Of a DNA stretch of 64,000 bases, positions 52,601 through 54,804 are shown piece after piece. The stretch is from Gekko japonicus (taxonomy: Eukaryota). Made by a program: the position numbers and the translations under genes. Position 1 is the stretch's first letter, and each line of letters starts with the position of its first letter. Location of the stretch: assembly GCF_001447785.1 (NCBI RefSeq), contig NW_015161420.1, forward strand, positions 117,730 through 181,729. Reading direction: 5' to 3'. The notes beneath the pieces were generated by a model. It worked only from the letters and a program-made list of their open reading frames with translations. It searched no databases and was not told the origin of the DNA.

Positions 52601-54804
52601 GTGAAGCAAGCAATTCAGGATTTTTTCAGGTGGGTAGATGTGTTGGTCTGAAGTAACAGAGCGAGATTTTTGAGTCCATTAGCACCTTAAAGACTTCTAG
52701 AGTATAAGCTTTTCTGAGTTAAAACTTATCTGAATTTTTATTCTGGAAAACATATACCCTGGCAGTCTTGTTAGTCTCTAAGGTGCTAGTGGACTGGAAT
52801 CTTCCAGTTCATAAATTGTGGCTTAAAGTAAATAATTTTTCATTTCTCTAGTAGCACTCCTAAACCTAAATCTAATCGCTAGAACTGTTCTTTATGCAGA
52901 AATACAAGGAAGATGAGCCTCTGTTTGCAAGCAGCCTTTGGGGTCCATCCTGTGATGAGCTTGATCAAATTGTAGAAAACTGTCTTCTCCCTGAGCTGAA
53001 TATTGGAGATTGGCTACTCTTTGACAATATGGGATCTGGTACCTTGGGTGAACAGTCTGCTTTCAATGACTTACAAAGGCCACCAGTTTATTACATAATG
53101 TCATTCGGTGACTGGTAAGTTTGCATTATTTTGTACTTGGGCATGTCTTAAAGCACATGAGCAGGCTGTCTACTAAGTTGCTTTCAGCAGGCTGCCCCAC
53201 AGTCAGAACATAATTTTAATGAGCCTTGTAAGTCTATATTTAAAATATATTTGGCGTAAGCTTAGGCTATGGGGAGTTGTCCACGTGCCAGAAGGAGGAG
53301 TGCTGGCAATGCATCAGTTCTTTTCTCTTTCGCTTGGGCAGAATTCTAAACTTTGCCCGGAAGGCCAGTATGCGCAGATGTCTAAATCTAGAGGCTGGCT
53401 TGCTCCGGGCAGTCCTGTCATAAAAAGCGGCAGTACTTGGTTGCACATGCTGCTTTCCTGACCTTTAACAACTCGTGCACAAGACCACAATAGTGGAAGA
53501 ATTACTGGTCACTTTGCTTGAACCAAGTTGTCACTTGGCCAGGGCATATAACTACTTGCTATGTAAAACTGTTCATAAAATTAATGAGCATGTGGATCTT
53601 TGCTGTTTAGTGGGAAAACCACACTGATCTGAATGTGTAGATTGGTCACTGCTGAGTGGTGCCTCAGCATAAGTCTGTATTATTATTATTATTAGTAGTA
53701 GTAGGTGTGTGTGTGTGTCTGGAGGGTCATGGTTGACTTCAGGCAATCCCTAATGGGTTGGACATTCAGAGAGTTCACTTGCTATTGCCTGCCCCTGCGT
53801 CCTGACCCTAGTATTCCTTGGAGGTCTCCCTTCCAATTACTTGCCAGGGTTGGCCCTGCTTAGCTTCCCAGATCTGACAAGATCGGGCTTCTCTGGGCTA
53901 TCCAGGTCAGGGCCCTCAGCATATGTCTGGTAATGAATAGATGCTTGCGTTGCTGACTAGAAGTGTGTGTCTGTGCACACGCTCTCCCAAGTAATCATTG
54001 TTTTCTTACTTTCCAAATCTTGTTTGGATTTTTTATTGCATCAGTTACTTGGTTTAAGTGGGAAATGCTTCTTGGCTGTAATATTTTCACCCCATTGAAC
54101 GTACAGTGAAATCCTCTGTGACTGCATCCCTTGCTCAAGGAAATTCCAGATAAGAGGAGGTTATCTCTGTTTTAACACCATACAGTTTTCGACTTGCAGA
54201 GCAGGTTTATATAGAAAAGCTGAACCTTGCCCTCCTCCCCCCACTTTTCCTAGTGCTTGAAGCACTTTAATGCAGAAGTGAACGTGGGAGGAAAATCCAC
54301 AAGGGTAAGGGGCAAGAAAGGAATAGGTTTTAGCTCCCTTTGTTCACAAGATTCAGCTCCTGTTTAATAATGGCCTCCTGTCTATTAGGGTGTTTAAAAC
54401 TTCTTATGGAAGTTAACAAAACTTCCAACTTCTTGCAAAATCCCTACCCTGTATTCCAGGCTTCCTTTGGACTGTAATAGAAGAGCTATATGGAACCTGT
54501 ATTTAATTAAATGTGGCTAACACAGATTTGATTGCAGGAATTGGGTTGCAAATTTCAGATTAGCATGGGAAGGCATGAATGACTGCATTTGCTTGAACAT
54601 CAGGAAATACGATTAAATGTTAAAATGTTTTATTATTCTGCTGTATTCTGGTGTGTGGCTAAACTGTTGTGCGTTTTGTTTTTTCCACTCAGGTGTGAGA
54701 TGCAAGATGCTGGCTTTACCTCTGACACACTGATGAAGAATTTCTTCTTTGTGCCTTCTTGCATTCAGCTGAGCCCTGAAGACAGATTTTCTATTGAAGC
54801 TTAA
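40573..54804 (+). CDS. AZIN1: Antizyme inhibitor 1, 447 aa, 10 coding exons
   Basis: join(40573-40674,40909-41082,41747-41919,43777-43908,45387-45468,45813-45887,49995-50160,52402-52514,52900-53114,54693-54804) = 1344 nt, all GT-AG, frame open. [18 protein letters not shown]...PFYNVKCN...WGPSCDELD...EDRFSIEA* is an ODC fold with AZIN1-type substitutions. Confidence 0.97.
40909..41082 (+). CDS. AZIN1: AZIN1 coding exon 2
   Basis: [13 protein letters not shown]...[36 protein letters not shown] / GTGAGT. Confidence 0.95.
41747..41919 (+). CDS. AZIN1: AZIN1 coding exon 3
   Basis: [10 protein letters not shown]...[17 protein letters not shown]...[18 protein letters not shown] / GTAAGT. Confidence 0.95.
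43777..43908 (+). CDS. AZIN1: AZIN1 coding exon 4
   Basis: [49 protein letters not shown] / GTGAGT. Confidence 0.95.
45387..45468 (+). CDS. AZIN1: AZIN1 coding exon 5
   Basis: [33 protein letters not shown] / GTAAGT. Confidence 0.95.
45813..45887 (+). CDS. AZIN1: AZIN1 coding exon 6
   Basis: [31 protein letters not shown] / GTATAA. Confidence 0.93.
46180..46960 (-). mobile_element. Decayed L2-type LINE (resumes after 47880)
   Basis: ORF 46637-46864 contains ...[13 protein letters not shown]..., a degenerate SRLDYC region; similar to 10581-11285. Confidence 0.55.
46966..47870 (+). mobile_element. 5'-truncated LINE (ORF2 C-terminus with CCHC zinc knuckle; RTE-X-like, clade uncertain) nested in the L2 copy
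   Basis: ORF 47180-47692 ...[26 protein letters not shown]...[15 protein letters not shown] at ~47842; (GA)n tail; 9-bp TSD GACTAACAT (46957-46965, 47871-47879). Confidence 0.8.
48727..48917. mobile_element. Penelope-like terminal inverted-repeat remnant forming a ~70-bp stem
   Basis: AGAACAAAGTTTGAATCCAGTGGCACCTTTAAGACCAACAAAGTTTTATTCAAGGT... pairs with ...ACCTTGAATAAAACTTTGCTGGTCTCAAAGGTGCTACTGGACTCAAACTTTGTTCT. Confidence 0.75.
49995..50160 (+). CDS. AZIN1: AZIN1 coding exon 7
   Basis: [44 protein letters not shown]...; TTCTAG / GTAAGC. Confidence 0.95.
50470..52000 (-). mobile_element. ORF1-only L1-derived element (HAL1-like), 1531 bp, TSD-flanked
   Basis: Starts GGGGAGCGGGGC; disrupted ORF1 51886->50938 (...LHLKFRGF..., [32 protein letters not shown]); AATAAA at 50504-50499; (CAA)n tail; 12-bp TSD GGCTTCACTGTT (50458-50469, 52001-52012). 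Confidence 0.85.
52402..52514 (+). CDS. AZIN1: AZIN1 coding exon 8
   Basis: [43 protein letters not shown] / GTGAGA. Confidence 0.95.
52625..52800. mobile_element. Penelope-like inverted-repeat remnant, diverged
   Basis: TTCAGGTGGGTAGA start shared with 48727; arms AGTCCATTAGCACCTTAAAGACT / AGTCTCTAAGGTGCTAGTGGACT. Confidence 0.65.
52900..53114 (+). CDS. AZIN1: AZIN1 coding exon 9 (exon 11)
   Basis: [45 protein letters not shown]...; ATGCAG / GTAAGT. Confidence 0.96.
53705..53915 (-). mobile_element. 5S rRNA-derived SINE
   Basis: GGAGGTCTCCCTTCCAATTACT...CCCTGCTTAGCTTCCCAGATCTGACAAGATCGGGC is the reverse of a 5S-like head; (TG)n tail. Confidence 0.7.
54693..54804 (+). CDS. AZIN1: AZIN1 last coding exon (exon 12)
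   Basis: [36 protein letters not shown]; acceptor TTTTCCACTCAG. Confidence 0.96.

What the first reader, a model, noticed from the sequence alone, without database searches (positions are those of the whole stretch)
52957..54802. Exon 11/exon 12 RNA duplex over the codon equivalent to the human S367G editing site, which is Asn here
Seen: exon 11 TAGAAAA-CTGTCTTC (52973-52987) is complementary to exon 12 GAAGACAG-A-TTTTCTA (54778-54793), giving 15 bp with one bulged A. AGCTGAAT (52994-53001) pairs with ATTCAGCT (54763-54770), and AGCTT (52958-52962) pairs with AAGCT (54797-54801). Both arms are coding and ~180 nt apart after splicing. Recalled: ADAR1 recodes human AZIN1 Ser367 (AGC) to Gly using a complementary sequence in exon 12, and the human arms differ at paired positions (GTGGAA/TTCC versus GTAGAA/TTCTA here), suggesting compensatory change. 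The codon here is AAC (N366, 52978-52980), so editing would give Asp (GAC), Ser (AGC, the human genomic state) or Gly (GGC, the human edited state). Inference: the duplex predates mammals and may support a different recoding repertoire in reptiles.
Basis: partly seen in the sequence, partly recalled or inferred. Interest (0 to 1): 0.75.

Follow-up and report, generated by a model that had tools for sequence, protein, structure and literature searches.

The report
Gecko AZIN1 RNA-editing duplex
The last two exons of this gecko polyamine-regulator gene (AZIN1) carry complementary arms that are predicted to fold into the same double-stranded RNA that the enzyme ADAR1 edits in mammals, so editing here likely changes an asparagine as it does in whale and cattle, but editing in a reptile is still untested.

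Summary
The gene is AZIN1: 447 aa, identical to Gekko japonicus AZIN1, with N366 aligned to primate S367. The exon 11/exon 12 arms are predicted to form a 41-45 bp duplex with most pair probabilities near 1, also in the 1,890-nt CDS+UTR fold. No synonymous recoding matched it (0 of 400; longest helix 12 against 15). It is the counterpart of the published human and mouse editing duplex, with 77 of 86 nt identical to the human probe. One true compensatory pair exists, but two pairs are lost and synonymous constraint is not significant. The 'reptile-specific repertoire' idea fails. Asn is the commonest amniote state (96 of 131 entries, 21 of 38 mammals), and Asn-codon editing is already reported in bowhead whale (both As) and cattle (N>D). 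No reads over the codon were obtained, so editing in this gecko is untested. New is the extension to sauropsids. Amphibians and fish mostly have His (47 of 56), which suggests the editable codon arose in the amniote stem. The scan's earlier findings showed no AZIN1 note. Verdict: new member of a known kind, modest interest.

The parts
40573..54804 (+). AZIN1 coding region, 10 coding exons, 447 aa, identical to Gekko japonicus AZIN1 (P0124)
52900..53114 (+). Penultimate coding exon (exon 11 in the mammalian numbering)
   Evidence: AG/GT ends and translation; RNA depth on its 3' part
52950..53014 (+). 5' arm of the predicted duplex (central helix 52972-52987; flanking helices 52950-52953, 52956-52962, 52991-53001, 53006-53014)
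   Evidence: partition-function folds
52977..52977 (+). A equivalent to the synonymous E/E editing site of human and mouse
   Evidence: sequence; site definition PMC10404624, PMC4053846; editing here untested
52978..52980 (+). AAC codon, Asn366, equivalent to human Ser367; both As are predicted A-U pairs next to a bulge
   Evidence: editing here untested
53115..54692 (+). Last intron (1,578 nt); spliced out in RNA reads
   Evidence: 38 and 33 reads in two RNA runs continue from the exon end into the first bases of the last exon
54693..54804 (+). Coding part of the last exon (exon 12 in the mammalian numbering), ending in TAA
54753..54808 (+). 3' arm (editing-complementary sequence), running through the stop codon into 4 nt of the 3' UTR
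54785..54792 (+). Equivalent of the 8-nt core ECS of human AZIN1; A54786 is bulged
   Evidence: PMC8571177 section 7 and Table S3 compared by eye; P(unpaired) 1.0 for 54786

Best explanation
The complementary arms in the last two AZIN1 exons are predicted to form the same exon-exon RNA duplex that ADAR1 edits in human and mouse, and after splicing cytoplasmic ADAR1 p150 likely deaminates one or more of the As at 52977-52979, which would give a silent Glu codon change and Asn366 to Asp, Ser or Gly. Shown here: the arms, the AAC codon, the splice join in RNA, and an ADAR1 exon with two Z-domains in the same genome. Predicted: the fold. Inferred from mammals: editing itself, its dependence on p150 and on prior splicing, induction by interferon, and any effect on antizyme binding.
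For: Fold: 41-45 cross-exon pairs; the 28 named pairs have probabilities 0.96-1.0 except two terminal ones (0.83, 0.62), also in the 1,890-nt CDS+UTR fold. Not forced by the protein sequence. The same arms are the experimentally mapped duplex in human (minigene deletion and mutation, PMC8571177) and mouse (4-nt ECS mutation abolishes editing, p150-only, after splicing; PMC10404624). 77 of 86 nt match the human probe, including the first 3' UTR bases, with one G-C/A-U compensatory pair and two pair-keeping one-sided changes (by eye). An AAC codon at this site is a demonstrated substrate in bowhead and cattle. Platypus shows 4 of 4 edited reads (PMC4053846 Table S3). An ADAR1-type open frame with two z-alpha domains lies in G000 (the ADAR1 label rests on my recall of the dsRBD1-like end of the frame). 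ADAR hyper-editing is reported in lizard brain (PMC5625713 table).
Against: No read data over the codon were obtained, so there is no direct evidence of editing in this species. In the downstream part of the 5' arm and exon (from 52981; mean depth about 29, 48 and 39 in three RNA runs) no A>G row was shown. In two runs all A>G places are accounted for by an intron repeat; in the third, one A>G place is among 21 rows not shown. Those As are not the known sites, and about 10% is the detection floor at that depth. Two pairs that extend the human central helix are mismatches here (52988/54777, 52989/54776). Third-codon-position conservation in the arms (5 of 27 differ from human) is not significantly above primer-site controls (12 of 46, p 0.57; 10 of 24 outside the last two exons, p 0.12). 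The first 31 nt of exon 11, outside the duplex, are 30 of 31 identical to human. Editing is tissue-restricted or absent in some mammal samples: opossum 0 of 56 reads, rat 0.4% of 538; bowhead muscle, retina and kidney unedited. The equilibrium fold keeps the duplex with the intron present, so it does not reproduce the intron suppression reported in mouse.
Confidence: 0.6

Rival explanations
1. The duplex is inherited from the amniote ancestor and persists because these two exons evolve slowly, but it is not edited to a meaningful level in geckos; any editing is tolerated noise.
For: Synonymous constraint in the arms is not significantly above neighbouring sequence. Two pairs are lost against human. 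Other amniotes carry residues whose codons must break a pair, for example Asp to Glu at the ECS in 9 of 35 bird entries. Opossum 0 of 56 reads. Amino-acid conservation of the last 18 residues is average for the protein (0.87, 52nd percentile).
Against: A double synonymous compensatory change. All 3 changed positions of the 5' arm face a changed position of the 3' arm (post hoc p 0.002-0.025). Pairing continues into a non-coding stretch after the stop that is identical in human and in the mouse primer. Both whale and cattle edit the Asn codon.
Confidence: 0.25
2. The duplex is under selection for another job, such as exon 11 inclusion, mRNA stability, or translation and termination at the stop codon that it buries; editing is a by-product.
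For: The helix covers the stop codon and the first 3' UTR bases. Oligonucleotides on the human exon 11 arm caused exon 11 skipping (PMC8571177 abstract). The edited codon itself flips between Asn and Ser often (17 changes on a 116-row tree against 5-14 at five other N/S columns), so the product of editing is not fixed.
Against: ECS-targeting oligonucleotides abolished editing without affecting splicing or translation in human cells (PMC8571177 abstract). No test here points to another function.
Confidence: 0.12
3. The complementarity is chance, or a by-product of the amino-acid sequence.
For: The global fold z is only -2.0, and the lead over the next-best CDS window pair is 3 kcal/mol.
Against: 0 of 400 synonymous recodings reach the local energy and 0 of 200 reach the helix length. 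The same arms are the mapped duplex in two mammals.
Confidence: 0.03

Closest known systems
Human and mouse AZIN1 S367G / E366E editing duplex (PMC8571177; PMC10404624)
   Same: Same gene, same two exons, same register, ECS at the 3' end of the last coding exon, 77 of 86 nt identical to the human probe, both known editable As present in the genome.
   Different: Codon is AAC (Asn) and not AGC (Ser), so there is a third editable A. The human G-C pair at codon position 2 is replaced by an A-U pair plus a bulged A, the human bulged U is paired, and two closing pairs are lost. Editing is not measured here.
Bowhead whale AZIN1 N367 editing (PMC8659423) and bovine AZIN1 Asn-to-Asp editing (PMC5823453)
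   Same: Bowhead: genomic AAC at the same codon, edited at both As. Cattle: Asn to Asp at the site conserved with human.
   Different: Mammals. In the passages read neither paper describes the duplex. The cetacean and deer proteins fetched carry Asn or Lys at the ECS residue where this gecko has Arg, so the local structure differs.
Intron-ECS recoding sites (GluA2 Q/R, BLCAP, HTR2C), as described in PMC10404624
   Same: Imperfect duplex that presents coding As to an ADAR.
   Different: Those use an intronic partner and are edited in the nucleus before splicing; here both arms are exonic and remain in the mature mRNA.

Membership tests
AZIN1 exon 11/exon 12 ADAR1 recoding site | Orthologous AZIN1 gene and codon | tested here: met
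   Protein identical to G. japonicus AZIN1; N366 aligns to primate S367
AZIN1 exon 11/exon 12 ADAR1 recoding site | ECS at the 3' end of the last coding exon pairs with the edited region | tested here: met
   By prediction only: pair probabilities near 1, register matches human Table S3; no structure probing
AZIN1 exon 11/exon 12 ADAR1 recoding site | Intron between the arms is spliced out in the mature mRNA | tested here: met
   38 and 33 junction-spanning loose ends in runs X23 and X24 match the start of the last exon
AZIN1 exon 11/exon 12 ADAR1 recoding site | Genomic A at the S/G-equivalent and E/E-equivalent positions | tested here: met
   A at 52978 and 52977 in the assembly
AZIN1 exon 11/exon 12 ADAR1 recoding site | A-to-G in RNA but not DNA at those positions | not tested
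   No reads over the codon were obtained; one search covers only the sequence downstream of it, and the DNA run had depth 0-1 on the exon
AZIN1 exon 11/exon 12 ADAR1 recoding site | Structure kept by covariation across species | tested here: inconclusive
   Only human (86 nt) and part of mouse were available as DNA: 1 compensatory, 2 compatible, 1 re-registered, 2 broken pair positions
AZIN1 exon 11/exon 12 ADAR1 recoding site | ADAR1 p150 (Z-alpha isoform) available in the organism | tested here: inconclusive
   A 550-codon frame with two z-alpha domains is in G000; its expression as a cytoplasmic long isoform was not tested
AZIN1 exon 11/exon 12 ADAR1 recoding site | Editing depends on the ECS and on ADAR1 p150 and rises with interferon | not testable with these tools
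   Needs reporters or knock-outs; shown for mouse in PMC10404624

The most novel reading that the evidence does not exclude
AZIN1 recoding is an amniote invention. His (CAY), found in 47 of 56 amphibian and fish entries, became Asn (AAC) in the amniote stem and created the editable A. The ancestral duplex set that codon against an ECS Ser codon, giving an A-C mismatch at the second A if the codon was AGC. ADAR1 p150 has recoded Asn to Asp, Ser or Gly under interferon control in reptiles, birds and mammals ever since. Human S367G is then a derived remnant, reached independently in crocodilians, colubroid snakes, phrynosomatids, an amphisbaenian, some birds and several mammal groups.
Probability: 0.35. 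Interest if true: 0.55.

Novelty: new member of a known kind. Interest (0 to 1): 0.32.

Why it matters
AZIN1 S367G is one of the best-studied recoding events in cancer and the first coding site reported to be edited by ADAR1 p150 after splicing (PMC10404624). A conserved duplex in a gecko dates the substrate to the amniote ancestor and shows that Asn, not Ser, is the usual unedited residue. That bears on whether the edit is an old interferon-linked switch or a tolerated by-product, and it can be tested cheaply in bird and reptile RNA-seq. The mechanism and the Asn repertoire are already in print for mammals, and sequence conservation of the site to chicken and zebrafish is ticked in PMC4053846 Table S8, so a specialist would find this plausible and not surprising.

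Tried and rejected
(1) 'Asn gives reptiles a special repertoire': rejected. (2) 'Ser often, Asp and Gly never (0 of 131) is a signature of editing being hard-wired or avoided': rejected as non-specific, because other Asn columns show the same bias, e.g. position 112 with 48 S and 1 D, 135 with 29 S and 2 D, 373 with 60 S and 2 D. (3) Edited forms (D or G) in protein databases: none seen in the 262 proteins fetched wherever the motif was found; most are genome-derived, so this is uninformative. (4) Orthologous DNA for a covariation test: the one metagenome scan gave a single 39%-identity locus (L002), and G000 has no relatives in the genome search. No multi-species nucleotide alignment could be built. 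(5) Synonymous constraint from primer sites: not significant; small, non-random sample compared by eye. (6) Amino-acid conservation of the tail as a sign of RNA constraint: average. (7) Paper searches for AZIN1 editing outside mammals and for RefSeq curation of antizyme inhibitors: no listed title or abstract start reported it. Subscription journals and the supplementary editome tables of chicken or lizard studies were not searched and may hold the site. (8) Earlier scan findings: none on AZIN1; seven unrelated ECS-like notes, not used.

Full report
What it is. The window holds a complete AZIN1 coding region in 10 coding exons from 40573 to 54804. The 447-aa product is identical to the Gekko japonicus entry P0124 (0 differences in 447) and carries the two ornithine-decarboxylase-family Pfam domains. 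The finding concerns the last two exons, 52900-53114 and 54693-54804, called exons 11 and 12 in the mammalian papers. The codon at 52978-52980 is AAC, codon 366, and aligns to S367 of a primate AZIN1. Raw RNA reads of the same species label join the two exons: 38 and 33 reads in two of three RNA runs shown.

The observation. All quoted complementarities are there. Folding the spliced exons gives 41 cross-exon pairs, or 45 with 3' UTR, from 52950-53014 to 54753-54808. The four As at 52976-52979 are predicted A-U pairs, with A54786 bulged next to them.

Chance. With the protein fixed and codons re-drawn, 0 of 400 sequences reached the local duplex energy under each of two codon models; these arms were chosen after seeing them. 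The less biased tests agree. 0 of 200 recodings gave a 15-bp helix with one bulge anywhere between the two exons (maximum 11-12), and 17 of 400 or 0 of 400 matched the whole-exon duplex energy. The duplex is the top 2 of 7,381 long-range window pairs in the CDS, 3 kcal/mol ahead of the next. Against dinucleotide shuffles the global fold is only z -2.0 (7 of 200).

What is known. PMC8571177 (seen: abstract, results section 7, passages, supplementary file 1 part 1 with Tables S1-S3) maps the human editing-complementary sequence to an 8-nt core at the 3' end of exon 12 by minigene deletion and mutation. PMC10404624 (seen: parts 1-4 of 7 of the text and supplement legends) shows in mouse that the E/E and S/G sites need this exon-exon duplex, are edited by ADAR1 p150 after splicing, rise with interferon and vanish in p150 knock-outs. 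PMC8659423 (seen: passages and section 22) reports a genomic AAC at codon 367 in bowhead whale, edited 75% and 48% at its two As in liver and not in muscle, retina or kidney; one sentence there swaps the human and whale residues. PMC5823453 (passages) lists bovine AZIN1 Asn to Asp in five tissues. PMC4053846 (passages and supplement rows) gives platypus 4 of 4 edited reads, opossum 0 of 56, rat 0.4% of 538, and ticks the site as conserved in sequence in chicken and zebrafish. PMC12203800, PMC8897444 and PMC5625713 were seen as passages only. Five searches for AZIN1 editing outside mammals listed nothing that reports it; closed journals and unsearched supplementary editome tables may.

Comparison with human. 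By eye, against the 86-nt probe of Table S3, 77 nt are identical: 39 of 42 in the 5' arm and 38 of 44 in the 3' arm, including the first bases after the stop. The 9 differences fall in 6 pair positions. One is a true compensatory change at two synonymous third positions (52974/54792, G-C in human, A-U here). Two are one-sided and keep a pair (52973/54793, 52972/54794); the mouse primer has U-A and G-C there. One, at codon position 2, loses the human G-C but is rescued by a register shift: A52979 pairs with the U that is bulged in human and A54786 bulges. Two break pairs (52988/54777, 52989/54776). All 3 changed 5'-arm positions face a changed 3'-arm position (post hoc p 0.002-0.025). Third positions in the arms differ at 5 of 27, against 12 of 46 at six primer sites elsewhere (p 0.57) and 10 of 24 outside the last two exons (p 0.12). 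The start of exon 11, outside the duplex, is 30 of 31 identical. So covariation is suggestive, not established.

Distribution of the codon. Of 262 proteins fetched I aligned 187, about one per named species; I dropped isoform duplicates, unnamed entries, truncated entries and AZIN2-like proteins. At the edited position 96 of 131 amniote entries have Asn, 29 Ser, 3 Lys, 1 each Thr, Arg and Ile, and none Asp or Gly. Asn is in 25 of 36 lepidosaurs, 18 of 18 turtles, 0 of 4 crocodilians, 32 of 35 birds and 21 of 38 mammals. His is in 13 of 16 amphibians and 34 of 40 fishes. The mammal sample is skewed by 90% clustering (one cluster of 550 is one row) and holds some low-quality models. A fast tree of 116 rows needs 17 changes at this column, against 5-14 at five other N/S columns (many branches unresolved). 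Asn is therefore likely ancestral for amniotes and Ser was reached many times. The lack of Asp is not special, since other Asn columns show the same bias. Five of seven gekkotan entries pair Asn with Ser at the ECS residue where this species has Arg, as do 16 of 18 turtles. If that Ser codon is AGC, the second A of the Asn codon faces a C, the mismatch that ADARs favour (my knowledge). That step is inference from amino acids only.

Enzyme and reads. G000 holds a 550-codon frame with two z-alpha domains, which I read as the large ADAR1 exon from recall of its dsRBD1-like end. No reads over 52977-52979 were obtained, so editing at the codon is open. Downstream of the codon, at mean depth about 29, 48 and 39, no A>G row was shown in the exon. 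All A>G places of two RNA runs lie in an intron repeat; one place of the third run is among 21 rows not shown. The tissues are unknown and these As are not the known sites, so this says little.

Mechanism and odds. Most likely (0.6): the spliced mRNA folds the two arms together, ADAR1 p150 edits one to three As in some tissues or under interferon, and Asn366 becomes Asp, Ser or Gly. Shown: arms, codon, splice join, Z-domain exon. Predicted: the fold. Inferred from mammals: editing, enzyme, regulation and effect. Rivals: an inherited but unedited or noisily edited duplex (0.25), a duplex kept for splicing, stability or termination (0.12), chance (0.03).

Verdict. A real, non-random duplex and a new member of a known kind. 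What remains new is the likely amniote-stem origin of the editable codon and an easy test in sauropsid RNA. Interest 0.32.

Noticed in passing
window 53800-53906, minus strand (last intron): 5S rRNA-like element (Rfam RF00001, 35.3 bits, below the gathering score of 38, E 5e-5) that attracts many divergent DNA and RNA reads: likely a copy of a 5S-derived SINE or a 5S pseudogene.
   Followed up: partly
window 53004 and 53106: About half of the reads of RNA run X23 differ (19 of 39 T>C, 17 of 42 C>T): likely heterozygous alleles. 53004 lies in a predicted internal loop of the duplex (P unpaired 0.95).
   Followed up: partly
window 54805-54808 with 52950-52953: The predicted duplex continues past the stop codon into the 3' UTR, and these non-coding bases match the human probe and a mouse primer.
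   Followed up: partly
L003:919-2571, minus strand (G000:C11792): 550-codon open frame with two z-alpha domains, likely the large ADAR1 exon, with several in-frame ATGs upstream of the first domain.
   Followed up: partly
proteins P0140, P0144, P0152, P0167, P0171, P0173, P0175, P0179, P0022: Nine passerine entries have Glu for Asp in the ECS-encoded tail, which must break one pair of the central helix in the gecko register; a natural test of tolerance.
   Followed up: no
window about 20001-22000: GC-rich island (0.61) about 19 kb upstream of the AZIN1 start codon, possibly its promoter.
   Followed up: no
L002 (metagenome contig): Uninterrupted 39%-identity relative of AZIN1/ODC; not an orthologue, not used.
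   Followed up: no
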